64,000 bases of DNA from Escherichia phage PJNS034. Under the pieces are notes generated by a model. The model saw only the letters and a program-made list of their open reading frames with translations. It searched no databases and had not been told where the DNA came from. Positions 12,265-57,444 of the stretch are shown one piece after another. Position 1 is the first letter of the stretch, and every line of letters begins with the position of its first letter. The translations under genes and the position numbers were made by a program. Location of the stretch: the sequence record PP391266.1. The stretch is one strand, 5' to 3'.

Positions 12265-12271
12265 TACAACA

Positions 12272-12308
12272 AAGCCCCAAGGGATTTCTCCCAAGGGGCT
12301 TTTCTTTT
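12272..12308. terminator. bidirectional terminator between convergent gene blocks
   Basis: Palindromic agcccc-aaggga-tttc-tccc-aa-ggggct with T-runs on both strands, exactly where plus- and minus-strand gene blocks meet. Confidence 0.55.
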
Positions 12309-15300
12309 ACGCCATTCCTGCCACAGAACCACCGAGATTCATGTACTCTGCAAGGTTAGTGCCGTAAGCATCAGTTGCTCGTAAGTTACGAGACTGGAGA
12401 GCTTTCTTAACAGCACCATGACCAAGCAAGTGAGCAGAAGCTCGGATGCCTTCCATAGTTACCGGAACACCATCAATAGTCTGACCGATGTACTGGTCAA
12501 GACCCATGTTTTTGGTACGACGGTCTAACATCTTATTCCAATCTTCAAAAGCCTTTTCCTGTGCTTCTGGAGAGTTCAGGAACTCCTCTTTCGAGTTAAC
12601 CCCATACTTACCAGTCCAGTTAGACTTCTCGTTCAGAATAGATTTCTGACCACGACCAACACGACCTTGTGACTTGATAATACCTAAGTCAACAAGAGCA
12701 GGCCATCCAAATTGGTACTTACCGACATAACCGAGAGTGTTCTCGATATCGTACTTACCACCGGATTCACGCTGGCCTAACACGTCACCATATGCACTCA
12801 TCATACCTCCTGCATAAGCGCTACCAGCAAACATAGAAGTCAGACCAATTGCACTCAAACCTAATTTCTTAGCCAGTGCATTAGCTGATTTCTCGTTACG
12901 GGCATAACGAACGATAGTTTCTTTATCAGGGTCAACCATCGCATACTCATAGCCTTTATCAAAGGCTACCTCTGGTGAATCAACACCTTCTGCCAGTTCG
13001 TATGGGTTTACCACTTTGATTTCTGGGTCAGATTCCAGTGCTTTACCATCCAGAGCTTCTGCTGCGGTGTCTACAACTTGCTTAACCTGTTCGGTTGGCA
13101 TGTCTTGCATAGCATCGAGCATATTCTCTACTGGTGCTTCTGGAGTAGGAGTCGGTTCAGGTTGTGGTTCAGTTACCACTGGTTCTTCACGTACTGGAGC
13201 AGCAAAGTCTTCCTCAGCCATAACTACTGGCTTCTGTACTGGTTCATCCATCATCGCCTTAGCAATTGGGGATTCATCAGCACGTAAGGCTTGTTTGTAG
13301 TCTTCCAGACTGTTGTAAACCTTCGGAGCACGTTCTGGGTCATACAGGCCGTAAGCAGATGCGATTGCTCGCTGGTTAGCTGGCCCCATATAGTTGGTAG
13401 TCTCACCTTTCCCGAACACTGCTTTAATCTGGTTACGCATGTCCATAGTGTACAGGCCGTTAGCCCCATTCACCATTTTATCGTAGCCTTTAGAGCGACG
13501 GTATTCGATAGCACCAAGTACATCACCCATCGTCTTCGCCTGAGTCATTACGTCAGTAACAGATTCAGAAGCCTTACCTGCGTTGATTGCTTTCTTACCG
13601 AAGTTCTGAATTTGTTTCAGCATCGCATTGGATGCAGTAGCAATGTCAGCTTTCAGGGAATCAGCAATTGCAGCCACTTCTTCTGGAGTGTTACGGGCAA
13701 TGATTTCATCCAACGATGCACGAGTCTGTGCAGCCGTTTCTTCCAGTGACTTAACTTGCTCTTTCAGTGCCTTGATTGGAGCATCCAGTTGAGTTGCTTT
13801 CTTCTCAAGAATTTCCAGCTTACGTTCGTGTGCTTCTTTGCGTTTCTGCTCAGCAGCTTGTTCACGTTTCTGTTTGTCTTGGAGAGCCTTCTCTTCCTTC
13901 GCCTGTTTATCACGGAGAGCTTTGTCAGCAGCTTCTTGCTTATCGTGCATCTTCTGATATTCAGCAGCCAGTTTACGTTGTTCACGTTCCCAAGCCATAT
14001 CAGCTTTCTCACGAGCAGCTTCGTCTTTCGCTTGAGCTTTCGCTTCATCACGTTTAACACGAGCAGCATCTAACAGTTCTTTCTCACGGGCTTTGAAAGC
14101 AGCAATTTCCTCAGCATGTGAATCACGCTGTAAACGTTCTTCTGCACGTTGAGTTTCTTTCAGACGTTTCTGTTCAGCACTTGCTTGTTCTTTCTTCAGA
14201 CGGTCGCCACGTTGTAACAGCTTGTTAGCAGTTGCACGAAGTTCTTTCTGAGTCAGTGGAGCAGTAGAGCCGAAGGTCTGTGCTTCAACAACTTGTAATG
14301 CTTGTTCTTTCGGAATGCCAAGTGAATCAGCAAAGTCCATCAGGTTTTCATGCTGAGCATAAATCTGATTAACTGCATCATCTTCAGCTTTACGGGCTAC
14401 AGTCTCTTCTGGAGTCTCAGCACCTTTAGCCAGAGCATCACGCTCACGTTGCATTGCCTTAATCAGTGAAGCCTTCTCACTATTCGTAAGCTGACGCATA
14501 GAGCCAGTTACAGGGTCAATGTAAGGTGAAGTCAGGTCGTCCATTACGAACTGGTCAAGGCCGTACTTACTTGCCAAACCGGAAATATGTTCGTTCTGGG
14601 TTGTGATGTTTTTAGCTGCTTCATCACGGATACCTGCTTTAACTTCCTCTGCCTCTGTCTTAGCTTTCTCAGCCTGTGCATTACGAGCTTCCTCACGAGC
14701 ACGTTGAGCCAATTCAGTAATCTCACCAGCATCACGGATGTTAGCGATTTGGTCTTCCGGTACACCTGCACGACGAGCACGTTCTTCCAATGCTTGACGT
14801 TCAACTTGTGCTGCACGGTTACGAATGGTTTCAGTTTCACGAATAGCTGCACCCAATACTGCATCCAGACCACGAGGTGCTGGAGCATTTGGAGCAGGAG
14901 CCGCTGGAGTAGGTTCACCAGTTGCCAGTGCTTGCAGGTCAGATGGGTCACGAACTACAGGGGCAGGTTCTGGAACAACAGTAGGCTCTACAACCGTTGG
15001 TTCAGGAGTACGAGCGTATTCCATTGAAGCCAGAGATTGTAATGCTGCTTGTTCTTCTGCACGACTAATGAATCGAGCAGCCTGTTCAGAGTTAACTTCC
15101 GCAATCTGAGCATCAGACCAACCTTTGTTACGAAGCACTTCTGCCTGTACAGGAGAAACACCACCATCAGGTGCTGGCTGAGTCATTTCTGGAGTAACAA
15201 CTGGTTCAGGAGTTACAGTCTGTTCTGGAGCTACAGGTGGTACATCTGGAGTCGGCTCTGGAGCAACATCTGCTGGTGGCGGAGTTGGTTCTTCTGGAGC

Positions 15301-17139
15301 ACGAGCAGCCATAACACGGTTCTGAGCATCTGAGTCACGAGCGATTGCACGTAAGCCTTCGAAGTCCTGAGCCATACGAGCACGAGCTTTACCTTCACGA
15401 GAACGAGCGATGATACCCGGTAATTCAGTTGCACCGAAGGTTTTCAGAGCTACTACTGGCTTAGCCACTTTACCGATTGTCGCTGGTTGTGAAGCATAAT
15501 CTTCAATACCGTAACGATAAGCAGGGTCTTGGTTTGCCAACATCTTATCTTTGTAGATAAAGGATGCAGCATTCATTGCTGGGTTAAAACCTTTGTCACC
15601 AACAGTGAAACCATAGGTATCAAGTTGACGAGAGAGGTTTTCAGCACGTTGACCAATTGCATCGTAAATCAGTGAACGGTCAGAAGCGGTATCACGCATT
15701 GCTTTCACAATAGCGTTTGCATCGTTCATCATGTTACGCAGATTACGTTGCTGAGATATAGAAGCAGCAGGGTCAATCTCACCCATATCTTGACGCAGTT
15801 TCAGTTCCTGAATTGAATCATTCAACTGGTTAACTACATCTTCGAAAGCTGATACGTCTTGTGCTTGTGCTTTCTTACCATTACGACGGGCAGTAGCCAA
15901 TTCTTCTGGAGAGAACACGCGAGAACCGAAGTCCAAGTCACCAAGTGCTGATGCACCTGAAATCTTACGACGACGAGCAGCAGAGCGAATGTCACCTTCA
16001 GTCAGACCCATCATAGCTGCGGCAGAGCCGTAATCATCAGACAGTTCAGACAAGCCACGTTTCACACCAATGTCACGCATTGCTTCTGGAGAAATATCAA
16101 CACCAGCATCTTTCAAATCACCAAACGCTTTATAGAAAGCAGATGGGCCGATGTTTTCATTTACCTGAGCACGTTCCGTTACCAGTGCTTCACGCTGTTC
16201 TGGAGTAAGGTCTTTACCTACGAGGCTATTCAGTTCTTCATCACGGTGAAGGTTACGCATAGCTTCAACTTGGTCACGTTCAGTCAGGGCTGGATTACCA
16301 CCTGCTTCACGGATGTTACGGTCATTACGACCTGCAAAGCTACGAACTGCTGGAGCAATTTCCATTGGGGCACGAATACCACCAGAAACCAGACCACCAG
16401 TTACTGCATAATCCAACAGGTTTTGTGGGTCAACAGCAAGTTCCTGACGACGACCCATTTCGTATGCTGCACCAGAAGCGCCTGCACCGATTGCACCAGT
16501 TGCTACGGTTTCCGCCATTCGTCCAAGAGCAGTTTTACCGACAGTTGCAAAAGGCTTCCCATAGGGAATAAGCCCTAGAGCGGCTGCGGCAGTACCAGCA
16601 GTACGAGCGATATCCGTGTTACCAGCACCCTCTTGTTCAGCGTAGATAGAACCAGTGGTAGGGCCATATGAAGTAGCACCGAATGCTAAGTCACCAGCCA
16701 TTGTTGGTAAGCCAGATGCAGTTTGTTCTGCAACAAACGTACCCAAGTCACCTAAACCACGAATGTCACGCCAGTTTTCCACGGCATAACGTTGGTTCTT
16801 CTCACCATGCTCACGTAACTTACGGGCAAGTTCACGGTCATGATAAGACTGTTTAGTAACTTCACCTTCTTGCGTCTGACCAGCTTTCTGAGCCAAATCA
16901 GCCTGACGTGCTGCTGCTGCACCAAACAAACCTGATGCCAGTTCAGTACGTCCACGAGTAAACGCATTAGAGATGTTACCGAAGAATCCACGGTCTTCTG
17001 TTGGAGCTTCTTGTACAGGCAGGGGAGCCTGAGAGATGTTTTGTTCCTGAGCCATTGGGACATTGCCCGTAGGTTGTGGAGAGCCACCGCTTCCACTTTC
17101 CAATTGACGCAGTAATTCTGGGTCTGTAATTGGAGTCAT
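12307..17139 (-). CDS. large virion protein (1610 aa) with C-terminal lytic transglycosylase-like domain; internal ejection protein or tape-measure-like
   Basis: Gly/Ala-rich N-terminal third, Pro-rich linker (PEPTPDVPPVAPEQTVTPEP), long K/E/A coiled-coil, C-terminal QRESGGKY...GKYQFG resembling an SLT catalytic Glu-Ser segment. Confidence 0.55.
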   Translation of the reverse strand: MTPITDPELLRQLESGSGGSPQPTGNVPMAQEQNISQAPLPVQEAPTEDRGFFGNISNAFTRGRTELASGLFGAAAARQADLAQKAGQTQEGEVTKQSYHDRELARKLREHGEKNQRYAVENWRDIRGLGDLGTFVAEQTASGLPTMAGDLAFGATSYGPTTGSIYAEQEGAGNTDIARTAGTAAAALGLIPYGKPFATVGKTALGRMAETVATGAIGAGASGAAYEMGRRQELAVDPQNLLDYAVTGGLVSGGIRAPMEIAPAVRSFAGRNDRNIREAGGNPALTERDQVEAMRNLHRDEELNSLVGKDLTPEQREALVTERAQVNENIGPSAFYKAFGDLKDAGVDISPEAMRDIGVKRGLSELSDDYGSAAAMMGLTEGDIRSAARRRKISGASALGDLDFGSRVFSPEELATARRNGKKAQAQDVSAFEDVVNQLNDSIQELKLRQDMGEIDPAASISQQRNLRNMMNDANAIVKAMRDTASDRSLIYDAIGQRAENLSRQLDTYGFTVGDKGFNPAMNAASFIYKDKMLANQDPAYRYGIEDYASQPATIGKVAKPVVALKTFGATELPGIIARSREGKARARMAQDFEGLRAIARDSDAQNRVMAARAPEEPTPPPADVAPEPTPDVPPVAPEQTVTPEPVVTPEMTQPAPDGGVSPVQAEVLRNKGWSDAQIAEVNSEQAARFISRAEEQAALQSLASMEYARTPEPTVVEPTVVPEPAPVVRDPSDLQALATGEPTPAAPAPNAPAPRGLDAVLGAAIRETETIRNRAAQVERQALEERARRAGVPEDQIANIRDAGEITELAQRAREEARNAQAEKAKTEAEEVKAGIRDEAAKNITTQNEHISGLASKYGLDQFVMDDLTSPYIDPVTGSMRQLTNSEKASLIKAMQRERDALAKGAETPEETVARKAEDDAVNQIYAQHENLMDFADSLGIPKEQALQVVEAQTFGSTAPLTQKELRATANKLLQRGDRLKKEQASAEQKRLKETQRAEERLQRDSHAEEIAAFKAREKELLDAARVKRDEAKAQAKDEAAREKADMAWEREQRKLAAEYQKMHDKQEAADKALRDKQAKEEKALQDKQKREQAAEQKRKEAHERKLEILEKKATQLDAPIKALKEQVKSLEETAAQTRASLDEIIARNTPEEVAAIADSLKADIATASNAMLKQIQNFGKKAINAGKASESVTDVMTQAKTMGDVLGAIEYRRSKGYDKMVNGANGLYTMDMRNQIKAVFGKGETTNYMGPANQRAIASAYGLYDPERAPKVYNSLEDYKQALRADESPIAKAMMDEPVQKPVVMAEEDFAAPVREEPVVTEPQPEPTPTPEAPVENMLDAMQDMPTEQVKQVVDTAAEALDGKALESDPEIKVVNPYELAEGVDSPEVAFDKGYEYAMVDPDKETIVRYARNEKSANALAKKLGLSAIGLTSMFAGSAYAGGMMSAYGDVLGQRESGGKYDIENTLGYVGKYQFGWPALVDLGIIKSQGRVGRGQKSILNEKSNWTGKYGVNSKEEFLNSPEAQEKAFEDWNKMLDRRTKNMGLDQYIGQTIDGVPVTMEGIRASAHLLGHGAVKKALQSRNLRATDAYGTNLAEYMNLGGSVAGMA

Positions 17140-44928: not shown

Positions 44929-45171
44929 TTGGGTCGCTATCGTTGGGACTGTAATTATCTGGGCGGTGTGCTGATGGAAGTATTAACAATGTTCGCTGTG
45001 TTCGTCATAGAGCTTCTCTGGGTGCATCCTATGGCATTCTTCGCAGACTTAGGTGCTGCGGGTCACTTTGGCTGGTCTTTGGCCTTCCTGATGGTGTACG
45101 GGCTGTTTATCGCTACGTTGCCATACAATATCCTCAAGCTATTCATTAAACGTAAGGAAATCCCTGCATGA
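44929..45171 (+). CDS. small membrane protein (80 aa)
   Basis: Two hydrophobic helices. Confidence 0.3.
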   Translation: MGRYRWDCNYLGGVLMEVLTMFAVFVIELLWVHPMAFFADLGAAGHFGWSLAFLMVYGLFIATLPYNILKLFIKRKEIPA

Positions 45172-46077: not shown

Positions 46078-46336
46078 TAACATGGCTAAGATTGCAACTG
46101 TGTGGTTTAACAAAACTGGTACTAACACTGTGTACCTCAAGCTGAATGGTAAGCTGCACAAGACTGAGGTGACTATCCCTCGTACTCACCTTATCAGCGG
46201 TCACATGCTAAATGATGCTGTTAAGAAGAAGCTGGTCGAAGAAGCGATTCGTGCTGACCTCGGCTGTGGCGTAGTTATCGCTGACAACCTCAAGAACTAT
46301 CAACACAATGGGGTACGCTTCCAGTATGGAAAATAA
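46040..46336 (+). CDS. hypothetical protein (start probably at internal Met, MAKIATVW)
   Basis: ORF-track ORF. Confidence 0.3.
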   Translation: MKQLTKRLNKRINNMAKIATVWFNKTGTNTVYLKLNGKLHKTEVTIPRTHLISGHMLNDAVKKKLVEEAIRADLGCGVVIADNLKNYQHNGVRFQYGK

Positions 46337-46754
46337 AATGAAGCGTGTGCTTAACCTGTCTGCCGATAAGGTGAACGGGTATGTGTTTAAAGATAGCCCG
46401 TCTATCTACTGGTCATGGTGGCATGTATTGCTCACCGTGGCCTTTGTTGTATTGGTGGTGTTCGCTTTGTGTGCTCCATTCAGTAAGGCACACGCTGCAT
46501 CATTCCCTGCTGGTGAGCATTTACAATGCCGCATTGAATTAGAAAGTGTTGGTGGTGGTCGTAAGCTGACGTTTAAATCTTACGATGATTCACACATCAA
46601 ACTTGCTAATAGTAATACTCTGGTGCTTCGCGGTGATGCTCAAGTGCCTGAGTCAACTGTTAACCTGAACAATGGTGAGTTGTTCGCAACAAGGGGTAGC
46701 TGGACTTATCGCGGCCTCTGTAAAAACGTAGATAATATCAGGATAAACCCATGA
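46308..46754 (+). CDS. membrane-anchored protein (148 aa)
   Basis: One hydrophobic helix followed by soluble domain. Confidence 0.35.
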   Translation: MGYASSMENKMKRVLNLSADKVNGYVFKDSPSIYWSWWHVLLTVAFVVLVVFALCAPFSKAHAASFPAGEHLQCRIELESVGGGRKLTFKSYDDSHIKLANSNTLVLRGDAQVPESTVNLNNGELFATRGSWTYRGLCKNVDNIRINP

Positions 46755-47074
46755 AAAAGATTTTTACTACTGTGACGATTCTGGCTGGCCTGTTTGCTTC
46801 ATCGGCTAACGCCTTTGTTTGCACTGGTACTGCTACCCATAAAGACGGTGGCACGGCTGACATTATCGTTAACACCAACGATATGGTGTTTGATGATGCT
46901 GTCGGTCTGTATCGTGCTGAAACTCAGTGGCATCCTAAGCTGGCCTCTACGCTGTATGTAGACCAGTCTGAAAAGACAATCGAAGGTGTTGGCTTCCGTG
47001 GCATGTACACCGCCGTAGCAGTCGATAGCAAAGACGTTATCATGATTGCTGACGACCTTGTTTGCTATGAGTAA
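46751..47074 (+). CDS. secreted protein with signal peptide (107 aa)
   Basis: N-terminal MKKIFTTVTILAGLFASSANA signal-like sequence. Confidence 0.4.
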   Translation: MKKIFTTVTILAGLFASSANAFVCTGTATHKDGGTADIIVNTNDMVFDDAVGLYRAETQWHPKLASTLYVDQSEKTIEGVGFRGMYTAVAVDSKDVIMIADDLVCYE

Positions 47075-47459
47075 ACTTGAGTGGGCTTGGTATATCTTTG
47101 CAATTACTGCCATAGTTGCATGGGGTGTATGGCTCAATAGTCTGCTGTAAGCTGCCTAATGCCTGCCTCATTGGTGGGCATTGTGAAGCATACCGCTTCA
47201 AACAACATTCTCATTAATTCCCTTTAGGGACTATCGCTATGTCTGAATGGCAATCCGATAGCCAACTTGGAACCTGTCCGTGAGTTGAAAAGAATCCTCT
47301 ATATGAGGGGTTTTGGGATAAGTAACGCAATATGGTAATCAACCTCAGGGGTGGGGTTGGTTATCTAAGTGTGTTTACGGAAATCATTGGTCATTGAGCT
47401 AAAGTACCAGTGGTAACTGATAAGCATACTTAGACAACCAACTAAATAAGGAATCCCCA

Positions 47460-47738
47460 ATGAAAAGAATTGCAATGCTGTTAAGTGCTGTAATGCTGAC
47501 TGGCTGTGTATCACTGACTGAGCAGACTGATAAAGAGTTGTGCTTTGGTTATGGTCGTGCTGAGTCAGAAGCGATGCGTGATGCTATCTTGCAAGAGATG
47601 CAAGAGCGTCAGGATGCTGGTATGTTCCCGATTGCTATCGAGGAATGTAAGAAGCAAGTGTTTCGTGGTATTCAATCACGGAATGAATCAAACCTTCTAT
47701 CTGCGAGCATGATTGGTGCTCGTTACCAACAACAATAA
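47460..47738 (+). CDS. lipoprotein (92 aa)
   Basis: Lipobox-like MKRIAMLLSAVMLTGC. Confidence 0.45.
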   Translation: MKRIAMLLSAVMLTGCVSLTEQTDKELCFGYGRAESEAMRDAILQEMQERQDAGMFPIAIEECKKQVFRGIQSRNESNLLSASMIGARYQQQ

Positions 47739-48198
47739 GGATGTAACAATGTCTCAAGTTCTGAATGATGTAAACCGCAGCTTTGGTTATGAGTTCTACG
47801 AAGAATCAAAAGCTCTGTCTGGTGTTCAAGGCTATCTGGCTGACCAGCCTAAGTTTCGTGTGTTCCTCAAGCTGCGTCGTCGCATGATTGAAGGTGAACT
47901 GCGTCAACTGAAAGTGATGCTGAAAACTGCCTCTGGTCTGGATGCTGCCGCTATCTACAAGCTGCGCTCTGCACTGAAAGATGATTTGCGTCGTATCGGT
48001 CAGCAACTGAAAGACCTGCGACTGCATACGCTGGGTGCTAAGAAAGCAGAAGCACAGCGTTACCTGAACGTAATGGCAATGCACGACCAGTGTGAGAAGG
48101 TCGGTGTTGATGGTACAAAACTCCTGAATGAAGTACATGCTGAAATTCAGGCTCGTAAGGCTTTGGATAATGAGTCTCGCAAACTGGTTTCTGAATAA
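47713..48198 (+). CDS. hypothetical protein (161 aa)
   Basis: ORF-track ORF. Confidence 0.3.
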   Translation: MVLVTNNNKDVTMSQVLNDVNRSFGYEFYEESKALSGVQGYLADQPKFRVFLKLRRRMIEGELRQLKVMLKTASGLDAAAIYKLRSALKDDLRRIGQQLKDLRLHTLGAKKAEAQRYLNVMAMHDQCEKVGVDGTKLLNEVHAEIQARKALDNESRKLVSE

Positions 48199-49070: not shown

Positions 49071-49520
49071 ATGAGTGTTGCAGCAACAGCAGCATTTCTG
49101 TGTATGACGTTAGTTATTCACGAAGAAGCACGAGGCGAGCCTATCGCTGTGAAATACGAGGTAGGCCACGTGGTGAAGAATCGGATGGATTCACGCCAGT
49201 ATCCAGATACATGCGAGGCGGTTGTACTGCAACCCAAACAGTTCTCGTGGACAAAAACAAAAGGTGTACAAGATGAGTACGATTTGCGACAACGTTATTA
49301 TCGCGTCCTTGACTCGCTCGACACTCCCCAAAAGCGACTTTCGTTTGCTGCTTCTCAAAGAGCGGCAGATGAAGTGCTCAGTGGTAAGCATAAATCTCGA
49401 ATCGGAGCTGCGCTCCACTTCGTTACTCGCGGTCACTCAACTCATTGGGCGTCCAAATTTAAACGCCATACTATAGCAGGTATGGATTTCCTACTCCCAA
49501 GGAAGAAGAAAAATGCTTAA
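49071..49520 (+). CDS. SleB-like cell-wall hydrolase (endolysin candidate)
   Basis: HEEARGEP matches the conserved EARGE segment of the SleB/Hydrolase_2 family as recalled. Confidence 0.55.
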   Translation: MSVAATAAFLCMTLVIHEEARGEPIAVKYEVGHVVKNRMDSRQYPDTCEAVVLQPKQFSWTKTKGVQDEYDLRQRYYRVLDSLDTPQKRLSFAASQRAADEVLSGKHKSRIGAALHFVTRGHSTHWASKFKRHTIAGMDFLLPRKKKNA

Positions 49521-49716
49521 ATGGCTGTTCCGTCAGGGAAAAGACCTGAACTCTATTCTGGCTCCGCTTCGTAAGATGAAGCTGGAACTGGAAGAACGCC
49601 TCCACAAGAATGCTGATGATATTGTGGAAGCACAAAAGACCATCACCGAAAAGACCAAAGAAAATGGTTCTATTGGTGAAGCCCTGCAAACTGACCTGTT
49701 CAAATCTATCAAGTGA
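49513..49716 (+). CDS. hypothetical protein (67 aa)
   Basis: ORF-track ORF overlapping neighbours at both ends. Confidence 0.3.
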   Translation: MLKWLFRQGKDLNSILAPLRKMKLELEERLHKNADDIVEAQKTITEKTKENGSIGEALQTDLFKSIK

Positions 49717-50645
49717 GACAAACGACTATGATTCGCACCCCATTCGGTAACTTCTCTGGTAAGACTATCGGTATCACTGCTGGCGTGATTGTGTTCCTCT
49801 TCATCCTGCTGCTGTTGAAGCCGTTCAAAGTTATCTCTGACACCGAGGAGGGTGTGCAGAAGTCGTGGTCAGGCCAGATTTACAGTCAACCAATGACTGC
49901 TGGCTTCCACTGGATGAACCCGTTCAACAGCGTCACAACGTTCCCAATGACGTATAAGAACGTTCAACTGACAAATATCGGCGTTCCTGCTCAGGACGGT
50001 TTCAAAACCACGATGGATATCAGCGTAACTGGTAAATTTATTCCGGGCATGACCCCTGCTGTCCTGAAGTCTACCGGTAATTCTGAACAGTTTGCAGCAG
50101 TGCATATCTCTAAACGTATCACAGCTAAGCTGATTGATGCTGGTAAGAAGCACGCTGTAATCAGTCAGAACTTCTACGATGAAAGCACTCTGAACAAAGT
50201 TCGTGAAGAAATCATCGTAACGGCTAACCAAGAGCTTGAGCCTCTGGGTTGGAAAGTGACTGCGGTTGAAATCAGCAACATCGACCTGCCGGACGTTATC
50301 AAGAACGCTATCAGCGAGTCCAAGGTTCGTGCTGAACAGGTTAAGCGTCAGAAAGAATCCTTAGCAATTGCTGCTCTGAAAGCACAAGAGATTGAGAAAG
50401 TTGCAGAGTCTAACTCTAAAGCAACTATCCTCGATGCTGATGCTAACGAGTACAAAGCTAAGAAAGAAGCTGATGCTAAAGTGTATGCTGCTGCTCAGGA
50501 AGCAAAAGGTAACAAAGAAGTTGCTGCCTCTGTAACTCCTGCTCTGGTTGAATACATGAATGCTCAAGCTAAGATGAAGTGGGATGGTCAGATGCCAACA
50601 ACGAATGTTGGTTCTAACACTCCTGTCATCATGAGCATGAAGTAA
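49713..50645 (+). CDS. SPFH/band-7 (stomatin/prohibitin-like) membrane protein
   Basis: N-terminal hydrophobic anchor, then band-7-like core and Ala/Lys/Glu-rich coiled-coil tail. Confidence 0.55.
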   Translation: MRQTTMIRTPFGNFSGKTIGITAGVIVFLFILLLLKPFKVISDTEEGVQKSWSGQIYSQPMTAGFHWMNPFNSVTTFPMTYKNVQLTNIGVPAQDGFKTTMDISVTGKFIPGMTPAVLKSTGNSEQFAAVHISKRITAKLIDAGKKHAVISQNFYDESTLNKVREEIIVTANQELEPLGWKVTAVEISNIDLPDVIKNAISESKVRAEQVKRQKESLAIAALKAQEIEKVAESNSKATILDADANEYKAKKEADAKVYAAAQEAKGNKEVAASVTPALVEYMNAQAKMKWDGQMPTTNVGSNTPVIMSMK

Positions 50646-50653
50646 TATACTCA

Positions 50654-50677
50654 AGCCCATCTATATGGTGGGCTTTA
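50654..50677 (+). terminator. intergenic hairpin with conserved flanks (cassette copy 1)
   Basis: agcccatc...gatgggct stem, flanked by ATACTCAAG and CTTTATGAAT. Confidence 0.4.
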
Positions 50678-50706
50678 TGAATGTTACTTAAACGAGGAAC
50701 TAAAAG

Positions 50707-50844
50707 ATGTTTGAATTTATCGGTGATTGTATTGCAACAACACTCAAGGCTGGATTGGGTGTGGTATTCATTGTGCTTATCTGGGTTGGCTTCCAGATGG
50801 CATGGAACTGGACGCTTGACCGTATTCGCTGGGGATTCAAATGA
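50707..50844 (+). CDS. small membrane protein (45 aa), holin-like size
   Basis: Read by eye: MFEFIGDCIATTLKAGLGVVFIVLIWVGFQMAWNW; preceded by conserved leader. Confidence 0.3.
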   Translation: MFEFIGDCIATTLKAGLGVVFIVLIWVGFQMAWNWTLDRIRWGFK

Positions 50845-51014
50845 AAATTGAGTTCACTGGAATGAAAGGTGGTCAGCATTGCTTCAAGAAAGGGGCATTG
50901 ACTTACCGCTTTAGCGAGGACGAACTCGCACAAATCGTTGGCTATGCTGTACGTATGGCAAAGGCTAACAACAACAAAACCCTGAAACAAACTAACTCCA
51001 AAAAGGACAAATGA
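50841..51014 (+). CDS. hypothetical small protein (57 aa)
   Basis: Read by eye; ATGA overlap with previous ORF. Confidence 0.25.
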   Translation: MKIEFTGMKGGQHCFKKGALTYRFSEDELAQIVGYAVRMAKANNNKTLKQTNSKKDK

Positions 51015-51015
51015 A

Positions 51016-52413
51016 ATGCCAATCGTAACTATCGTAACTAACCGTAATAACTCTGAAACTAAGCGTGTTGAAGCTCAGTCAGGCGGTTGCTTCGGCTTTA
51101 TGGCATCAACCTCTTTCTTCCGTGACCATCGCCGCGATGTTGAGTACGTTGGTTATCATATGGAGTCATCCAATCAGGCTAAGCATTGTAGCGAAGTCTT
51201 TGATGGTAAGAATAAGTTATTCCCGTATCACAAATTCATGACCAACAATGAGTTCCATGCTATGTTCGGTGAGAACTTTGTGGATACTCGCCACGGTACT
51301 GTTAGTCACCACGGTTATGTGGTTGTTGAAATGCAGCCAGAAGGTTTTGAAGGTGTTGGTATTCCACAGGACATGTTCATCTCTGGTCTGTTCACTGCTC
51401 GTCAGTTGAGCTATGGCCTGTATCCGAACATGCGTGACACCATTAAGAAAGGTGTTCACCCAATGATGGCTTACGTTATCAGTGAGCTGATTCAGTGGGA
51501 AGATACAAGCACTGCTCTTGCTGCACAGCTTCGCTGGAAACGTCAGCGTGTTAGTTCTTCCAACATCGACAGCACAGCGTTCGGTAAGAAGAACCTGATT
51601 AACATGTTCAACTGCCTGAAAGGTAAGAAGCATGTGCCTTACTTCGGTCACGAAGGTGGCATCATTCAGCGTGGTGGTTACAAGCGTGACCATAACTTCA
51701 ACACCTCTGCTGATAATCGTCCGGGTATTTATCAGACAATCACGGCGAACATGAACACTTCATCTGCACCGATTGAAGCTGATGAACCAATCATCAACCC
51801 GTTCCACTTCTCTCCAGCTTACCTCGGTCATGTACTGAATGAACTGCTGGGTTGTGAAGTATTTGATATGTCGAAGATGCTTGACCGTCAGGGTATGAAA
51901 GTTAACCCAAAATCTTCGGTGTACAAGTTCTACCAGATGCGTGATGTGAAGTTCCGTAAGTCATATCGAAAAGGTGATATGGTTGAAGTTCGTGCTGATA
52001 TGTTCGGTGCTGACCAGTACATCAACCGTCACAACACTCCGCTGAGCAATCTGGTTTCTTATCGTCATGGTGAGAACAACACCACTAACCGTGTTGGTTT
52101 CGTACCGGTTAAGACTCATGTTGAGAAGGTCAGCGTGAAGAACGGTGTGGAAAGCGTTAAGCTGGAAAACGGTTGCTGGGTATCTCCACGTTACATCAAA
52201 ACTGCTGGTACTCATGCGGTTGAAGGTGTGAAGATTCAGGCAGGTACTGACACTCCGGTAAATGCACTGTATACAGTTCGTAATTCAAAAGAAGTGTATG
52301 CTGCACGTACCTTTGACTTGTTCGAAGCATCTGTTCGACTGATTCAGGTTACTGGTAACAGTATCGGTCAAGAGATTATCAAGCGTCCACGTGACCTGAT
52401 TCCAGCGCTCTAA
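51016..52413 (+). CDS. hypothetical protein (465 aa), first large gene of the ligase cluster
   Basis: Long ORF with no motif I can assign; contiguous with the amide-ligase genes. Confidence 0.5.
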   Translation: MPIVTIVTNRNNSETKRVEAQSGGCFGFMASTSFFRDHRRDVEYVGYHMESSNQAKHCSEVFDGKNKLFPYHKFMTNNEFHAMFGENFVDTRHGTVSHHGYVVVEMQPEGFEGVGIPQDMFISGLFTARQLSYGLYPNMRDTIKKGVHPMMAYVISELIQWEDTSTALAAQLRWKRQRVSSSNIDSTAFGKKNLINMFNCLKGKKHVPYFGHEGGIIQRGGYKRDHNFNTSADNRPGIYQTITANMNTSSAPIEADEPIINPFHFSPAYLGHVLNELLGCEVFDMSKMLDRQGMKVNPKSSVYKFYQMRDVKFRKSYRKGDMVEVRADMFGADQYINRHNTPLSNLVSYRHGENNTTNRVGFVPVKTHVEKVSVKNGVESVKLENGCWVSPRYIKTAGTHAVEGVKIQAGTDTPVNALYTVRNSKEVYAARTFDLFEASVRLIQVTGNSIGQEIIKRPRDLIPAL

Positions 52414-52567
52414 TGGGTATTAATAAGACCATGACTACAGCGTTCTTTATCCTCGCTGTAGCATCGCCAATACTTGCCTGTTTCAATACAACAGCAGCAG
52501 CATTTAGTGCTGGCATGGCTGTCTTCGCAATGCTTTGTTATGTTGTAGCGAACGGTTGATATACTCA

Positions 52568-52595
52568 AGGTCATTCACAAAGTGAGTGGCCTTTA
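52568..52595 (+). terminator. intergenic hairpin with conserved flanks (cassette copy 2)
   Basis: aggtcattcac / gtgagtggcct stem, flanked by ATACTCAAG and CTTTATGAAT. Confidence 0.4.
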
Positions 52596-52645
52596 TGAAT
52601 ATCATCTGCCAATAACGGCAACTTAAACTGAACGAGGAAACTACT

Positions 52646-53455
52646 ATGACGATTCGCCTGATTACTCTTGGTGCTGACCCTGAAACTATTGTTGCTCGCA
52701 ACGGTGTTCCAACTCACGCTATTGGTCTTATCGGCGGTACTAAGGAAGAACCACGTAAGATTATCCGTGGTGGTCGTGAAGTTGGTGCGGTGCAGGAAGA
52801 TAATGTCCTGTATGAGTTCAACATCATGCCACACGATACTCGTCAGGGATTCATTGACAACATTCAGCAGATGTTGGAAGTGGGTCGTGAGATTCTGGGT
52901 GATGGTTACGAAATCACTAATAAGACTTCTCACATCTTCTCTGATGAAGACATGGCTCATTTCCCTGACTCAGCGTTTATCTTCGGTTGTGAACCGGATT
53001 TCTTCGCTGGTAATGGTGAGATGAATCCGAAGCCTGCTGCACCGTGGCCGGGTCTGCGTACCGCAGGTGGTCATGTTCACTTCGGGTTCGATGAGCGTGT
53101 AGTTCGTGATGATGAGAATGTTCGTTCTCTGATTCAACTGTGCGATATGTATATGGCGTTGCCGTCAATGCTTCTGGACACTGACGACCTGCGTAAAGAA
53201 CTGTATGGTAAGGCCGGTGCATTCCGTCCGAAAGCATATGGTGCTGAATATCGTACACTGTCAGGTTTCTGGATTCATAATCCTGAAAATACTGGCTTCG
53301 TGTTTGACCAAGCGCAGAAAGCGTATGATGCGTTGGCAACTGGTCTGGGTCGTGAGATGTTGGCACGTTTCCCATACGAACTGGTTGTCGATATCATCAA
53401 CAGCAATGACCGTGGACGTGCTGAACGTGCCCTGAAAGTTATGCAGGTTGCATAA
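52646..53455 (+). CDS. amidoligase-like protein, divergent (269 aa)
   Basis: GADPETIV and TAGGHVHFGF parallel the GLELELE and STHVHLD segments of the downstream amidoligase-like ORF; preceded by conserved leader. Confidence 0.4.
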   Translation: MTIRLITLGADPETIVARNGVPTHAIGLIGGTKEEPRKIIRGGREVGAVQEDNVLYEFNIMPHDTRQGFIDNIQQMLEVGREILGDGYEITNKTSHIFSDEDMAHFPDSAFIFGCEPDFFAGNGEMNPKPAAPWPGLRTAGGHVHFGFDERVVRDDENVRSLIQLCDMYMALPSMLLDTDDLRKELYGKAGAFRPKAYGAEYRTLSGFWIHNPENTGFVFDQAQKAYDALATGLGREMLARFPYELVVDIINSNDRGRAERALKVMQVA

Positions 53456-53637
53456 TGGAAGAAGGTCTGCTGATTAGCTGGGTTGAATCTCCAGCGAACC
53501 GTAAGACCAAGACTCATACCCTCTTCTTCGAAAGCCTGGACGAGGGTTATGAGTTCATGGCCTCTAAAAGTTGTGTAATTCAAGTACAACGCATTCCACT
53601 GGTGAGAAAGAATGGCGAAACTGGTAACGGTAAATAA
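53455..53637 (+). CDS. hypothetical protein (60 aa)
   Basis: ORF-track ORF, start overlaps previous stop. Confidence 0.25.
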   Translation: MEEGLLISWVESPANRKTKTHTLFFESLDEGYEFMASKSCVIQVQRIPLVRKNGETGNGK

Positions 53638-53803
53638 CGCAGATAAAACTGTAACTCGTCGTGTCTTTATGGACAACGAAGAGGGTATCATGTGGGCAGT
53701 TGACCAAGCCCGCACAGCACTGTCAGTCGTGACTGATGATGTGGAAGTGGTCGAGGCTTCCAGCCGTAAAGGTTGGGAAGGTCATATCGCATGTGATTGC
53801 TAA
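53612..53803 (+). CDS. hypothetical protein (63 aa)
   Basis: ORF-track ORF. Confidence 0.25.
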   Translation: MAKLVTVNNADKTVTRRVFMDNEEGIMWAVDQARTALSVVTDDVEVVEASSRKGWEGHIACDC

Positions 53804-53827
53804 TTTAAACTGAACGAGAGAACTAAA

Positions 53828-54436
53828 ATGTCAATCAATATGTCAAGTGGTGATTTACGTCTGTATTGGGGTGGGTGTTATGCACCTGTTGCATGGGATG
53901 CAGCAGATAGTGGCGTAGCAACACTGGTAATTCACGACGTTCGTGTGATAAATCCAATGTCACGTGACTACACCGAAGCACGAGTTCAAGGTGAACTATT
54001 CTTCATTCGTAATGGAGAAGAGGCTCGTGGTAATTTTGAAGGTCGTATGTCTGACCTCCTCGGTGATGGGTTCACCACTCCTCAACGCAATATCGGTTAT
54101 ATCCGTGTTCACGGTCAACCGTATTGGATTACCTTCAAACGTCGTCGTACAAATCGTAAAGGCATCACCAATGACCGTCTGGCTGTGTATGTAGCTGGGC
54201 ATCGTGGTGAAGCAGGTTTGAACTTCGGTAGTGATGTGTTGTGTCGTCTGTATGCAACCTTTGATGGTCGTATCTCTGATGATTTCTGTATTCATCAGAA
54301 CATGATTCATTATAAAGGTGTGGTTGTCGGACGTTATGAGCGTCACAATCGTATTGTATTAGCTGAACGTTTTGCGTATCTTAGCTGGTCGCTGGAACGT
54401 ATCGGTGGTTACGACGTAACGGTGGAGGTTGAGTAA
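53828..54436 (+). CDS. hypothetical protein (202 aa) inside ligase cluster
   Basis: Preceded by conserved TTAAACTGAACGAG leader; stop overlaps amidoligase start. Confidence 0.4.
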   Translation: MSINMSSGDLRLYWGGCYAPVAWDAADSGVATLVIHDVRVINPMSRDYTEARVQGELFFIRNGEEARGNFEGRMSDLLGDGFTTPQRNIGYIRVHGQPYWITFKRRRTNRKGITNDRLAVYVAGHRGEAGLNFGSDVLCRLYATFDGRISDDFCIHQNMIHYKGVVVGRYERHNRIVLAERFAYLSWSLERIGGYDVTVEVE

Positions 54437-55260: not shown

Positions 55261-55261
55261 C

Positions 55262-55477: not shown

Positions 55478-55485
55478 TTAACTCA

Positions 55486-55508: not shown

Positions 55509-55563
55509 TGGTAATCATTACCACAAACTATTGAAACTAACTATTGAACTTGAGGAAAGTATT

Positions 55564-57439: not shown

Positions 57440-57444
57440 AACAA

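What the first reader, a model, noticed from the sequence alone, without database searches (positions are those of the whole stretch)
49071..50645. SleB-type cell-wall hydrolase next to an SPFH/band-7 membrane protein
The endolysin candidate belongs to a family best known from spore-cortex lysis rather than classical phage lysozymes, and the next large gene encodes a stomatin/prohibitin-like membrane scaffold, uncommon in phages. Small membrane proteins follow (50707..50844). The scaffold protein could organise lysis timing or membrane microdomains, or be unrelated to lysis.
Basis: partly seen in the sequence, partly recalled or inferred. Interest (0 to 1): 0.45.

Follow-up and report, generated by a model that had tools for sequence, protein, structure and literature searches.

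The report
Phage wall-cutting enzyme beside SPFH scaffold
A phage gene for a cell-wall-cutting enzyme of the SleB family sits in a tight, conserved operon with a membrane scaffold (SPFH) gene, and the same pairing recurs in several unrelated phages, which suggests, but does not prove, that the scaffold helps control an exported wall-cutting enzyme.

Summary
49071-49520 encodes a 149-aa single-domain SleB/Hydrolase_2 lytic transglycosylase with its catalytic Glu intact. 49728-50645 encodes a 306-aa single-pass SPFH protein with every part of a cage-forming subunit.

Neither family is rare in phages: Hydrolase_2 homologues occur in 1,295 and SPFH homologues in about 750 of 50,697 phage records.

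The hydrolase is the only free muralytic enzyme found in this TacPo2-like genome, so it is the default endolysin. It lies in the early/middle strand block, not in a holin-spanin cassette. It lacks a cleavable signal, but its N-terminal 16 residues are as hydrophobic as one; homologues in T5-like, Certrevirus and another phage carry apparent Sec signals.

In 17 SPFH-bearing lineages, a Hydrolase_2 gene lies within 2.5 kb in six, once in reversed order with overlapping genes. Kayviruses pair an SPFH protein with an unrelated secreted transglycosylase. Against coupling, SPFH also occurs, transfers and is replaced on its own.

Best reading (confidence about 0.4): an envelope or lysis-control module acting at the periplasmic face of the inner membrane. 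The main rival is unrelated neighbours.

The parts
49071..49520 (+). 149-aa single-domain SleB/Hydrolase_2-family lytic transglycosylase. It is the default endolysin. The N-terminal 16 residues are uncharged and hydrophobic, directly before catalytic Glu19. The C-terminus is basic (pI 9.8, net +10).
   Evidence: Pfam and PHROG hits. Alignment to SleB 4f55/4fet. AlphaFold model and Foldseek search. GGTGA ribosome-binding site. Invariant E19, R38, P45, Q54, Q57, F58, W60 and W126 in 11 homologues. Hydrophobicity comparison.
49513..49716 (+). 67-aa coiled-coil protein without a TM segment. Its start overlaps the hydrolase stop (translational coupling). It belongs to a small family that follows SleB-type genes or precedes SPFH genes in related phages.
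   Evidence: ORF and AGGAAG ribosome-binding site. 92-94% identical in TacPo2, L004 and L008. An HMM built from the window lineage finds SE131 gp125 (2e-5), a T5_ev219 71-aa CDS (4e-5), an L017 fragment and GAP52_090 (0.007-0.011). Alignments A2 and A3.
49728..50645 (+). 306-aa SPFH/Band 7 protein. It has a short basic N-tail, one TM helix (residues 11-29), an SPFH domain (33-186), an 80-residue helix (189-268), a second helix (271-283) and a C-terminal tail. The SPFH domain is probably periplasmic.
   Evidence: Pfam and PHROG 200 hits. Homologue length. AlphaFold model with pLDDT 88. Full-length Foldseek matches to cage-forming SPFH subunits. Family profile best hit QmcA at 1.2e-15. Charge bias across 132 family representatives.
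50707..50844 (+). 45-aa single-pass membrane protein directly after the SPFH gene. It is a possible small partner or client of SPFH.
   Evidence: GAGGA ribosome-binding site. dN/dS 0.17-0.30. Conserved in L004 and L008 but absent from TacPo2. The HMM hits the 40-aa ORF directly after the SPFH gene of Moazamivirus SE131 (1e-7). Non-homologous 32-51-aa single-TM ORFs occupy the same position in LAh_9, Miller and Enterococcus phage TJE1.
50841..51014 (+). 57-aa soluble protein of unknown function. Its start overlaps the p45 stop. It is identical in L004 and L008.
51016..52413 (+). 465-aa protein of unknown function, a conserved neighbour. Distant homologues sit directly upstream of the hydrolase gene in L005 and L017.
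   Evidence: No Pfam, PHROG, NCBIfam or PADLOC hit. Homology to TacPo2_5, L015 528 aa and L017 474 aa.
44974..45171 (+). 65-aa protein with two TM segments and a basic C-terminus. It is a tentative class II holin or pinholin candidate, 4 kb upstream on the same strand.
   Evidence: TM scan. Conserved in TacPo2 (79%), L004 and L008. No family hit. Assignment rests on features only and is not tested.
12307..17139 (-). Context only: a 1610-aa virion or ejection protein whose C-terminus carries the only other muralytic-type domain found in the window.
   Evidence: PHROG 27932 'baseplate hub subunit and tail lysozyme', residues 1451-1608, 2.8e-20.

Best explanation
Window 49071-52413 is a tightly packed, conserved accessory operon of a TacPo2-like podovirus. 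It contains four relevant genes.

1. A minimal SleB-family lytic transglycosylase. It is the only free muralytic enzyme found in the window, so it is the enzyme that destroys the wall at lysis.
2. A 67-aa coiled-coil protein that is translationally coupled to the hydrolase.
3. An SPFH protein with all the parts of a cage-forming subunit. It is anchored N-in, so the dome would sit on the periplasmic face of the inner membrane, as in HflK/C.
4. A 45-aa single-pass membrane protein.

Phage enzymes of this family appear to work from the periplasmic side. The T5-like, Certrevirus and L019 homologues carry N-terminal segments that read as ordinary Sec signals. The window enzyme has none, but its first 16 residues, which form helix alpha-1 ending at the catalytic Glu, are uncharged and as hydrophobic as a signal peptide. 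I therefore propose that it is exported and held on the membrane as an uncleaved signal-anchor, in the manner of a SAR (signal-anchor-release) endolysin. I further propose that the SPFH assembly acts on the same membrane face. It would organise, hold or help export the hydrolase until the membrane is de-energised. On this reading the locus is a lysis-control or envelope module, not a classical holin-endolysin-spanin cassette.

Shown here: protein identities, architecture, conservation, purifying selection, and a non-random genomic association between the two families.

Inferred: topology, export, tethering and the client relationship.
For: **Identity**
- Family hits, alignments, models and fold matches.
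- No other endolysin family among 60 ORFs scanned.

**Operon packing**
- Overlapping or nearly abutting genes, each with its own ribosome-binding site.

**Conservation of hydrolase-p67-SPFH**
- The trio is kept in TacPo2, L004, L008 and L015/L016, down to 54% SPFH identity and 70% hydrolase identity.
- Beyond that clade the genes stay close despite rearrangement. In L017 the gap is 0.4 kb. In L005 it is 2.4 kb, with p68 staying next to SPFH.
- L019 has the reversed order DNA polymerase, SPFH, hydrolase, with a 4-nt gene overlap, in a phage whose polymerase is only 29% identical.
- In T5-likes the two genes are 1.6 kb apart, and in Moazamivirus SE131 6.5 kb.

**Survey and base rate**
- Of 17 SPFH lineages surveyed, 6 have Hydrolase_2 within 2.5 kb.
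- The genome-level base rate is 1,295 of 50,697 records, or 2.6%.

**Export**
- The T5-like, CR8 and L019 homologues have N-terminal segments that read as signal sequences.
- The Certrevirus CB7_83 protein has a signal peptide and is toxic when expressed, and CR3_087 has been implicated in lysis (PMC7344957).
- The 16 residues before the catalytic Glu have mean hydropathy +1.1 to +1.7 with 0-1 charged residues in the signal-less forms. In the forms with signals the values are -0.2 to -0.3 with 1-5 charged residues.

**SPFH topology**
- Charge bias favours N-in in 89 of 132 family representatives and the opposite in 21.

**Independent parallels**
- The Kayvirus lytic module places the SPFH protein MbpS beside Tgl. 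Tgl is an unrelated, Sec-secreted, early-expressed lytic transglycosylase that needs loss of proton-motive force to lyse cells (PMC7150955).
- Faecalibacterium phage Toutatis has a 3D-domain protein with a signal-like N-terminus 1.3 kb upstream of its prohibitin gene.
Against: - **SPFH without the hydrolase.** SPFH occurs with no Hydrolase_2 gene in the available flanks in 10 of 17 lineages. These include T7-like, T4-like and N4-like phages.
- **Hydrolase without SPFH.** Hydrolase_2 occurs with no SPFH nearby in CR8, a Manatee Spring podovirus and GAP52. It is also found in more phage records than SPFH.
- **Independent transfer.** SPFH genes of T5-like, Moazamivirus and T4-like phages are 72-78% identical, while their SleB genes are only 36% identical.
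- **Independent replacement.** In L004 the SPFH gene alone has been replaced by a 64%-identical allele between flanks that are 86-100% identical.
- **SAR criteria only partly met.** The hydrophobic stretch is 16 residues, there is no basic n-region, and AlphaFold packs it as helix alpha-1 of the fold.
- **Limits of the survey.** Lineages were chosen by similarity to this SPFH and are not phylogenetically independent. SPFH also tends to lie a few kb from the amidoligase cluster, so simple co-location in an accessory-gene island could explain part of the pattern.
- **No direct data.** There is no evidence here on expression timing, protein interaction or topology.
Confidence: 0.4

Rival explanations
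1. The two genes are unrelated neighbours in an accessory-gene island. The hydrolase is a canonical cytoplasmic endolysin released by a holin encoded elsewhere, for example the 65-aa two-TM protein at 44974-45171. The SPFH protein is an autonomous, horizontally mobile membrane accessory with its own role, such as membrane stabilisation, superinfection exclusion or protection from membrane-targeting host defences.
For: - SPFH lacks a nearby Hydrolase_2 gene in 10 of 17 lineages.
- SPFH genes are 72-78% identical across three phage families, while their SleB genes are only 36% identical.
- SPFH alone was replaced by a divergent allele in L004.
- SPFH is also often a few kb from the amidoligase, GGCT or GSP-synthase genes.
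- The hydrolase has no canonical signal peptide, and AlphaFold folds the N-terminus into the domain.
- A conserved two-TM holin-like gene exists on the same strand.
Against: - Adjacency persists through rearrangement and deep divergence, including the reversed and overlapping pair in L019.
- The association is far above the 2.6% genome-level base rate.
- The p67 family is found next to the hydrolase gene in some phages and next to the SPFH gene in others.
- Parallel pairings with non-homologous exported transglycosylases exist in Kayvirus and Toutatis.
- The N-terminus is unusually hydrophobic compared with mature secreted homologues.
Confidence: 0.35
2. The SleB-type enzyme is not the lysis enzyme. 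It would be an early, periplasmic wall-remodelling enzyme, as its T5-like homologues seem to be, where a separate M15 peptidase sits next to the holin. The real lysis genes of this phage would then be unrecognised.
For: - In T5-like phages the SleB-domain gene lies far from the holin, and the M15 endolysin is adjacent to it (PMC11180984).
- Phapecoctavirus carries both a GH24 lysozyme and a Hydrolase_2 protein (PMC10793346).
- The gene lies in the strand block that holds the replication genes, downstream of consensus sigma-70 promoters.
- No holin or spanin could be assigned with confidence.
Against: - No other endolysin family was detected in about 64 kb that spans essentially the whole genome; TacPo2 is 65 kb.
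- The homologues in GAP52 and 7-11 are the only annotated endolysin candidates.
- CR3_087 has been implicated in lysis.
- The basic C-terminus is a feature reported for lysins of phages of Gram-negative hosts that carry Hydrolase_2 and two other catalytic domains.
Confidence: 0.12
3. The SPFH protein mimics HflK/C or QmcA and cages or modulates the host FtsH protease. That would protect phage membrane proteins or rewire host proteolysis, with no link to the hydrolase.
For: - Full-length structural similarity to HflC/K and QmcA.
- A weak hflC hit in NCBIfam.
- Predicted HflK/C-like topology.
- The role of HflK/C as an FtsH modulator is established knowledge (PDB 7vhp/7wi3 titles), and an FtsH-related role has been suggested for another phage's SPFH protein (PMC10269572).
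Against: - The hflC score of 22.8 bits is far below the cut-off of 134.4.
- There is only one SPFH gene, not a K/C pair.
- Nothing in the neighbourhood points to FtsH.
- It does not explain the recurrent proximity to exported muralytic genes.
Confidence: 0.1

Closest known systems
Catalytic domain of Bacillus SleB (PDB 4FET, 4F55; Pfam PF07486 Hydrolase_2), a germination-specific lytic transglycosylase
   Same: The fold is the same (Foldseek E 5e-5, TM 0.66/0.80). The motif around the catalytic Glu is conserved. The Pfam score is above the cut-off.
   Different: Only the catalytic domain is present. There is no N-terminal peptidoglycan-binding domain and no Sec signal. The score against the SleB equivalog model is 33 bits against a cut-off of 236.5. 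No YpeB-like partner is present. It is a phage gene of a Gram-negative host, and its helix alpha-1 is fully hydrophobic.
SleB-like 'cell wall hydrolases' of T5-like phages and Vequintavirinae (CB7_83, CR3_087, CR8 gp090)
   Same: They belong to the same family (27-36% identity). They are small single-domain enzymes placed among early or replication genes, often followed by a small membrane or coiled-coil gene.
   Different: Those enzymes carry N-terminal segments that read as Sec signal peptides; this one does not. In T5-likes the enzyme is a second hydrolase beside an M15 endolysin; here it is the only candidate.
Kayvirus Tgl-MbpS (PMC7150955)
   Same: A phage-encoded lytic transglycosylase that reaches the wall without a holin pore sits beside an SPFH-domain membrane protein. 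Tgl is transcribed like an early gene, and lysis needs loss of proton-motive force. The authors suggested that MbpS aids Sec export of Tgl.
   Different: Tgl belongs to the IsaA/SceD type and is not homologous to Hydrolase_2. The host is Gram-positive. A separate major endolysin (LysK) and a holin are adjacent. The role of MbpS has not been tested either.
Cage-forming bacterial SPFH complexes: HflK/C-FtsH and QmcA-YbbJ (PDB 7VHP, 7WI3, 8Z5G)
   Same: The subunit architecture is the same: an N-terminal TM helix, an SPFH domain, a long coiled-coil helix and a C-terminal tail. QmcA is the best sequence match (1.2e-15). The predicted topology resembles HflK/C.
   Different: There is a single gene rather than a K/C pair. 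There is no NfeD partner. Identity to solved structures is only 11-20%. The protein belongs to a compact phage clade of 638 clusters at E<=1e-3 among 1.84 billion representatives. Its clients are unknown.
SAR (signal-anchor-release) endolysins such as P1 Lyz and phage 21 R (compared from my own knowledge of these proteins)
   Same: An uncleaved hydrophobic N-terminus rich in Ala, Thr and Ser lies immediately before the catalytic residue, and a conserved Cys lies inside it.
   Different: The enzyme family is different. The hydrophobic stretch is only about 16 residues. There is no basic n-region. No pinholin has been demonstrated. Export has not been tested.
PHROG 200 (phage SPFH family, labelled 'lipoprotein')
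   Same: Strong full-length match (1.3e-40). Members are found in T5-like, T4-like, N4-like, Moazamivirus and Lahexavirus phages.
   Different: Identity to those members is 23-31%. The 'lipoprotein' label does not fit: no lipobox was seen by eye in the window, T5-like, SE131 or Miller proteins.

Membership tests
Hydrolase_2 / SleB catalytic-domain family (PF07486) | Profile match above the curated cut-off | tested here: met
   60.2 bits against a cut-off of 27, E 3.2e-16.
Hydrolase_2 / SleB catalytic-domain family (PF07486) | Catalytic glutamate in the conserved E-[AS]-x-G-E motif | tested here: met
   Glu19 aligns with the Glu of 'YGESRGEP' in 4f55/4fet and is invariant in 11 homologues. That this Glu is the catalytic residue comes from my own knowledge of the SleB structures.
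Hydrolase_2 / SleB catalytic-domain family (PF07486) | SleB catalytic-domain fold | tested here: met
   The AlphaFold model has pLDDT 90.8. The only significant PDB matches are 4fet and 4f55.
Hydrolase_2 / SleB catalytic-domain family (PF07486) | Muralytic (lytic transglycosylase) activity | not testable with these tools
   Needs zymography or muropeptide analysis.
Genuine spore-cortex SleB (TIGR02869 equivalog) | Full-length match, including the signal peptide and N-terminal peptidoglycan-binding domain | tested here: not met
   33.4 bits against a cut-off of 236.5. Only residues 12-59 match. The protein is 149 aa with no extra domain.
Canonical holin-dependent endolysin | Muralytic enzyme with no export signal, encoded with or near a holin and spanins | tested here: inconclusive
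   There is no cleavable signal, but the N-terminus is strongly hydrophobic. No holin or spanin is adjacent. One 65-aa two-TM candidate lies 4 kb upstream. No spanin pair was recognised.
SAR endolysin | Uncleaved N-terminal TM segment rich in weakly hydrophobic residues | tested here: inconclusive
   Residues 2-16 are uncharged, with 8 of 15 being Ala, Thr, Ser or Cys (by eye, sequence). The 16 residues before the catalytic Glu have mean hydropathy 1.68. The segment is only about 16 residues long and also forms helix alpha-1 of the fold.
SAR endolysin | Basic n-region before the hydrophobic segment | tested here: not met
   The N-terminus is 'MSVAATAAF...' with no Lys or Arg. L019's signal-like segment also lacks one.
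SAR endolysin | Sec-dependent export and release when the membrane is depolarised | not testable with these tools
   Needs reporter fusions and experiments with energy poisons.
SPFH / Band 7 (PF01145) | Profile match above the curated cut-off | tested here: met
   57.6 bits against a cut-off of 23.6. PHROG 200 at 1.3e-40.
SPFH / Band 7 (PF01145) | Cage-subunit architecture: membrane anchor, SPFH domain, long coiled-coil helices and C-terminal segment | tested here: met
   AlphaFold elements are H11-29, strands and helices 33-186, H189-268 and H271-283. Foldseek alignments of about 300 columns to erlin, HflC/K, prohibitin, stomatin and QmcA.
SPFH / Band 7 (PF01145) | Assembly into a closed oligomeric cage | not testable with these tools
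   Needs BN-PAGE or cryo-EM.
HflK/HflC | Equivalog-level similarity and a heteromeric pair of two paralogous genes | tested here: not met
   The hflC model scores 22.8 bits against a cut-off of 134.4. Only one SPFH gene was found in the window.
SPFH-NfeD operon (QmcA-YbbJ type) | Adjacent NfeD gene (TM segments plus a C-terminal OB-fold domain) | tested here: not met
   The neighbours p67, p45 and p57 have no Pfam hit above its curated cut-off and no NCBIfam hit. At 45 aa with one TM segment, p45 is too small to carry an OB-fold domain.
Known anti-phage defence proteins (PADLOC) | Match to a defence-system model | tested here: not met
   No hit for the hydrolase, p67, SPFH, p57, p465 or p239; p45 was not scanned.

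The most novel reading that the evidence does not exclude
Phage SPFH proteins build a periplasm-facing dome on the inner membrane that encloses, or gates the export of, a membrane-tethered or Sec-exported lytic transglycosylase. The enzyme can then be made early and kept away from the wall until the membrane is de-energised. This would be a previously undescribed lysis-control device. It would be used with non-homologous enzymes in unrelated phages: SleB-type in T5-like, TacPo2-like and L019 phages; Tgl in Kayvirus; a 3D-domain protein in Toutatis. In this phage the client would be the first SAR-like endolysin of the SleB family, with the small single-TM protein after the SPFH gene as a further component.
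Probability: 0.15. Interest if true: 0.85.

Novelty: new variant of a known kind. Interest (0 to 1): 0.5.

Why it matters
Phage SPFH proteins have been noticed since 2006, and a 2026 paper still calls their role unclear (PMC1524935, PMC13239085). No functional study turned up in my searches.

The recurrent proximity to exported wall-cutting enzymes gives that open question a concrete, testable hypothesis. A cultured relative, Pantoea phage TacPo2, carries the hydrolase, the 67-aa gene and the SPFH gene in the same order but lacks the 45-aa gene.

If the link is real, it would add a new layer to the known ways phages time lysis (holins, pinholins, SAR endolysins, antiholins). It would also identify the first client for a viral SPFH cage.

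If the link is not real, the locus is still useful. It shows a signal-less SleB-type endolysin with an unusually hydrophobic N-terminus, and an SPFH gene that is exchanged between phage families and swapped as an allele. That behaviour is typical of genes involved in host or competitor interactions.

Tried and rejected
**Searches that gave nothing usable**
- Four attempts to collect related loci from IMG/VR failed, so the neighbourhood survey rests on 17 hand-collected lineages. The window SPFH and P0012 found no confirmed relatives.
- The word-indexed protein search found only 7 SPFH and 6 hydrolase relatives.
- The PADLOC scan found nothing for the locus genes; p45 was not scanned.
- No paper mentions TacPo2.
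- The BSPM4 ORF52 antiholin paper turned out to concern an unrelated Chi-like phage.

**Ideas considered and dropped**
- Lipoprotein 47460-47738 plus the coiled-coil protein 47713-48198 as a spanin pair. Rejected because the coiled-coil protein has no TM segment and the lipoprotein is not proline-rich and has no C-terminal TM segment.
- The 48-aa ORF 52413-52559 as a holin. Rejected because that stretch is poorly conserved in L004 (0.56) and L008 (0.29).
- The 168-aa minus-strand ORF 11774-12280 as a lysis gene. Rejected because the plus-strand 161-aa ORF there looks nuclease-like by eye.
- The 'lipoprotein' label of PHROG 200. Rejected because I saw no lipobox in the sequences I read.
- p45 as an NfeD homologue. 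Rejected on size and domain content.
- The 499-aa gene upstream of SPFH in L019 as a p465 homologue. It is a DNA polymerase.

**Side lead not pursued**
- The amidoligase cluster. One literature search gave nothing useful.
Full report
**1. What is at the coordinates**

The ORFs are real.

The ORF at 49071-49520 (149 aa) matches Pfam Hydrolase_2 at E 3.2e-16, 60.2 bits against a cut-off of 27. It also matches PHROG 938 'endolysin'. It aligns to the crystallised SleB catalytic domains, with Glu19 ('HEEARGEP') on the Glu of 'YGESRGEP'. Glu19, R38, P45, Q54, Q57, F58, W60 and W126 are invariant in 11 diverse homologues. An AlphaFold model (pLDDT 90.8) has as its only significant PDB matches the SleB catalytic domains 4FET and 4F55, which the depositors describe as a germination-specific lytic transglycosylase. 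It is not a SleB orthologue. The equivalog model scores 33 bits against a cut-off of 236.5, and there is no peptidoglycan-binding domain.

The ORF at 49713-50645 matches Band_7 (57.6 bits against a cut-off of 23.6) and PHROG 200 (1.3e-40). Homologues are 306 aa, so the start is the ATG at 49728. Its model (pLDDT 88) has a TM helix at residues 11-29, an SPFH domain at 33-186, an 80-residue helix at 189-268 and a second helix at 271-283. It aligns over about 300 columns to erlin, HflC/K, prohibitin, stomatin and QmcA subunits. A family profile hits QmcA best, at 1.2e-15.

It has an AGGAAG ribosome-binding site and its start overlaps the hydrolase stop.

The 'small membrane proteins' are one 45-aa single-TM gene at 50707-50844. 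It has a GAGGA ribosome-binding site and dN/dS of 0.17-0.30. A soluble 57-aa gene and a 465-aa gene of unknown function follow, and all are tightly packed. dN/dS is 0.13-0.47 for the genes that could be compared.

**2. Genome context**

The window is nearly a whole phage genome.
- The only DNA relative among 50,697 phage records is Pantoea phage TacPo2 (65 kb, every gene annotated 'hypothetical', 83-86% nucleotide identity).
- The minus-strand block at 12.3-41 kb is structural. It holds terminase, portal, scaffold, major capsid and tail genes, and a 1610-aa internal protein with a lysozyme-like C-terminus.
- The plus-strand block at 42-64 kb and 1-12 kb holds three consensus-like sigma-70 promoters at 42.1-42.5 kb and a strong terminator at 43.6 kb.
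- The same block holds DksA-like, secreted and lipoprotein genes, then the locus studied here.
- Further along it holds a phiEco32-type amidoligase cluster, primase/helicase, DNA polymerase, 10 tRNA genes, an exonuclease and a PnuC-like transporter.

So the locus is in the early/middle strand block, not at the end of the late operon. Among 60 ORFs scanned, no other endolysin, holin or spanin family was hit. The hydrolase is therefore the default endolysin. Some ORFs under 100 aa were not scanned, and about 1 kb of the genome may lie outside the window. The best holin-like gene is a conserved 65-aa two-TM protein at 44974-45171.

**3. How unusual the two families are in phages**

Neither is rare. 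Hydrolase_2 homologues occur in 1,295 of 50,697 phage records. A published survey names the domain, with two others, as dominating among lysins of phages of Gram-negative hosts (PMC8223927). SPFH homologues occur in 730-756 records, in T5-like, T4-like, N4-like, Moazamivirus and Lahexavirus phages. They were noted in 2006 (PMC1524935). A 2026 paper still calls their role unclear (PMC13239085), and I found no functional study.

**4. Whether the pairing is more than chance**

Within the lineage, the hydrolase-p67-SPFH trio is kept in TacPo2, L004, L008 and L015/L016. That holds down to 70% hydrolase identity and 54% SPFH identity.

Further out:
- L017: hydrolase 0.4 kb upstream of SPFH.
- L005: 2.4 kb apart, with three inserted genes. 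The p67 homologue stays next to SPFH.
- L019: the order is DNA polymerase, SPFH, hydrolase, with a 4-nt overlap. The polymerase is only 29% identical to the window's, so this is a distant phage.
- T5-like phages: 1.6 kb apart, with a tRNA gene between them.
- Moazamivirus SE131: 6.5 kb apart.

No Hydrolase_2 gene lies in the available flanks of SPFH in ten other lineages. These are a T7-like phage, L020, L021, L022, L025, a T4-like contig, Lahexavirus LAh_9, T4-like Miller, an N4-like Vibrio phage and Toutatis. Some of those contigs are only 4-7 kb long. Conversely CR8, a Manatee Spring podovirus and GAP52 have the hydrolase with no SPFH nearby.

Six of 17 lineages within 2.5 kb is far above the 2.6% genome-level base rate. 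However, the lineages were chosen by similarity to this SPFH and are not independent. I count about three or four independent instances. My rough estimate is that four hits in twelve trials at p = 0.026 has a probability near 2e-4.

An HMM of p67 built only from the window lineage also finds the small genes near SleB in SE131 (2e-5), T5_ev219 (4e-5) and GAP52 (0.007-0.011). So a third gene tracks the pair.

**5. Evidence against obligate coupling**

The SPFH genes of a T5-like phage, Moazamivirus SE131 and T4-like Miller are 72-78% identical, although these phages belong to three different families. Their SleB genes are only 36% identical, and Miller has none nearby.

In L004, nucleotide identity to the window falls to 0.61-0.77 exactly over the SPFH gene, while the flanks are 0.86-1.0. 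SPFH is therefore exchanged on its own.

SPFH also tends to sit a few kb from amidoligase, GGCT or GSP-synthase genes. Part of the pattern could simply be co-location in accessory-gene islands.

**6. Compartment**

The T5-like homologue begins 'MKAALLLVAALTFSFSSQA|SHD'. CR8 begins 'MKKSTAALFAASALSFASVPALA|KD'. L019 begins 'MILYAGIFIIFLSSLAA|SNNPP'. I read these as signal peptides by eye. The Certrevirus CB7_83 protein was reported to have a signal peptide and to be toxic on expression, and CR3_087 was implicated in lysis (PMC7344957).

The window enzyme and its relatives in SE131 and GAP52 start directly with helix alpha-1. In these, the 16 residues before the catalytic Glu have mean hydropathy of +1.1 to +1.7 with 0-1 charged residues. 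In the mature secreted forms the values are -0.2 to -0.3 with 1-5 charged residues. This N-terminus is the most conserved part of the protein in the clade. This fits an uncleaved signal-anchor, as in SAR endolysins. Against that, the stretch is short, it lacks a basic n-region, and AlphaFold packs it into the fold. The protein is basic (pI 9.8, net +10).

For SPFH, the residues before the TM helix are more basic and less acidic than those after it in 89 of 132 family representatives, and the reverse holds in 21. The T5-type proteins have six Lys/Arg in the N-tail. This predicts an N-in topology with the SPFH domain in the periplasm, as in HflK/C. That comparison rests on my own knowledge of HflK/C and QmcA topology.

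**7. Parallels elsewhere**

In Kayviruses the lytic module places MbpS, an SPFH-domain membrane protein, between the endolysin gene lysK and tgl. Tgl is a Sec-secreted lytic transglycosylase of a different family. It is transcribed like an early gene, lyses E. coli when expressed, and in S. aureus needs nisin, which mimics holin action. The authors speculated that MbpS helps its Sec transport (PMC7150955).

In Faecalibacterium phage Toutatis a 3D-domain protein with a signal-like N-terminus lies 1.3 kb upstream of a prohibitin-family gene.

A 32-51-aa single-TM ORF directly follows the SPFH gene in five lineages. These are the window clade, SE131 (homologous to p45; HMM 1e-7), LAh_9, Miller and Enterococcus phage TJE1.

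**8. Verdict**

The parts are ordinary family members, and the locus is not a classical lysis cassette.

The best-supported reading (confidence about 0.4) is a conserved envelope or lysis-control module. In it, an exported or membrane-tethered SleB-type transglycosylase and a periplasm-facing SPFH assembly act at the same membrane face. Identity, architecture, conservation and the non-random association are shown here. Topology, export and the client relationship are inferred.

The main rival (about 0.35) is that they are unrelated neighbours and SPFH is an autonomous mobile accessory. Lesser rivals are that the enzyme is a non-lytic early wall remodeller (0.12) or that SPFH is an FtsH modulator (0.1).

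The association of phage SPFH genes with exported muralytic genes did not appear as a general pattern in the papers I could search. One case, Kayvirus, has been discussed.

Noticed in passing
window 49801-50600 compared with L004:5753-6673: In the close relative L004, nucleotide identity to the window drops to 0.61-0.77 exactly over the SPFH gene, while the flanks stay at 0.86-1.0. The SPFH gene alone has been replaced by a 64%-identical allele. The SPFH-domain core is the most divergent part (50-57% amino-acid identity).
   Followed up: yes
L009:4848-5795, L011:7875-8795, L012:7878-8792: The SPFH proteins of a T5-like siphovirus, a Moazamivirus podovirus and a T4-like myovirus are 72-78% identical to one another. 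This implies recent horizontal transfer between phage families. SE131 also shares two further neighbouring genes with T5-like phages, judged by matching lengths of about 234 and 213 aa; I did not compare their sequences.
   Followed up: partly
window 52646-59596: A phiEco32-type peptide-ligase cluster lies directly downstream of the locus. It comprises a COOH.NH2 ligase, an amidoligase, a glutamine amidotransferase, a RimK-like ATP-grasp enzyme and a gamma-glutamyl cyclotransferase. The same kind of cluster lies a few kb from SPFH genes in L005, L015, L022 and Aeromonas phage LAh_9.
   Followed up: partly
window 49101-49103 and 49212-49214 (Cys11 and Cys48 of the hydrolase): A Cys pair sits at -8 and about +29 relative to the catalytic Glu. 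By eye it is conserved in the window clade, L005, L017, the secreted T5-like and L019 enzymes, and the Manatee enzyme. It is absent from Bacillus SleB, CR8 and GAP52. This would fit a periplasmic disulfide.
   Followed up: partly
window 50653-50675: A 7-bp hairpin (AAGCCCA, 9-nt loop, TGGGCTT) sits in the 61-nt gap between the SPFH and p45 genes. No T-run follows it. It could be an RNA-stability or attenuation element.
   Followed up: no
window 46308-47738: A run of envelope-directed small proteins lies upstream of the locus. It comprises a 148-aa protein with an N-terminal TM or signal segment, a 107-aa protein with a signal peptide, a 34-aa TM ORF, and a 92-aa lipoprotein (lipobox LTGC, weak Cor-like PHROG hit). 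None has a known function.
   Followed up: partly
window 28347-28595 (- strand): An 82-aa protein with an N-terminal TM helix followed by a coiled coil lies inside the tail-gene block. It looks like an i-spanin, but it matches a PHROG labelled 'virion structural protein' and has no lipoprotein partner.
   Followed up: no
window 42079-42545 and 43634-43664: Three sigma-70-like promoters face the plus-strand block, and one is a perfect TTGACA-16-TATAAT. A 13-bp terminator hairpin follows after the first gene. This fits host-polymerase early transcription.
   Followed up: no
window 4423-5251; 10451-11751: There are ten clustered tRNA genes (TacPo2 has eleven, in a partly different set). Next to each other lie a nucleoside 2-deoxyribosyltransferase gene and a PnuC-like NMN transporter gene.
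   Followed up: no
L012:7124-8945 (Citrobacter phage Miller): The SPFH gene lies two genes downstream of the T4-like lysis-inhibition gene (rI type). An unannotated 32-aa single-TM ORF follows it. This may be no more than T4 synteny.
   Followed up: no
PHROG 200 and GenBank annotations: The 'lipoprotein' label that propagates through phage annotations for this SPFH family looks wrong. I saw no lipobox in the window, T5-like, SE131 or Miller proteins.
   Followed up: partly
window 52401-52600: The stretch holding the 48-aa hydrophobic ORF (52413-52559) is poorly conserved in L004 (identity 0.56) and L008 (0.29), unlike its flanks. It is a small variable spot between p465 and the ligase gene.
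   Followed up: partly
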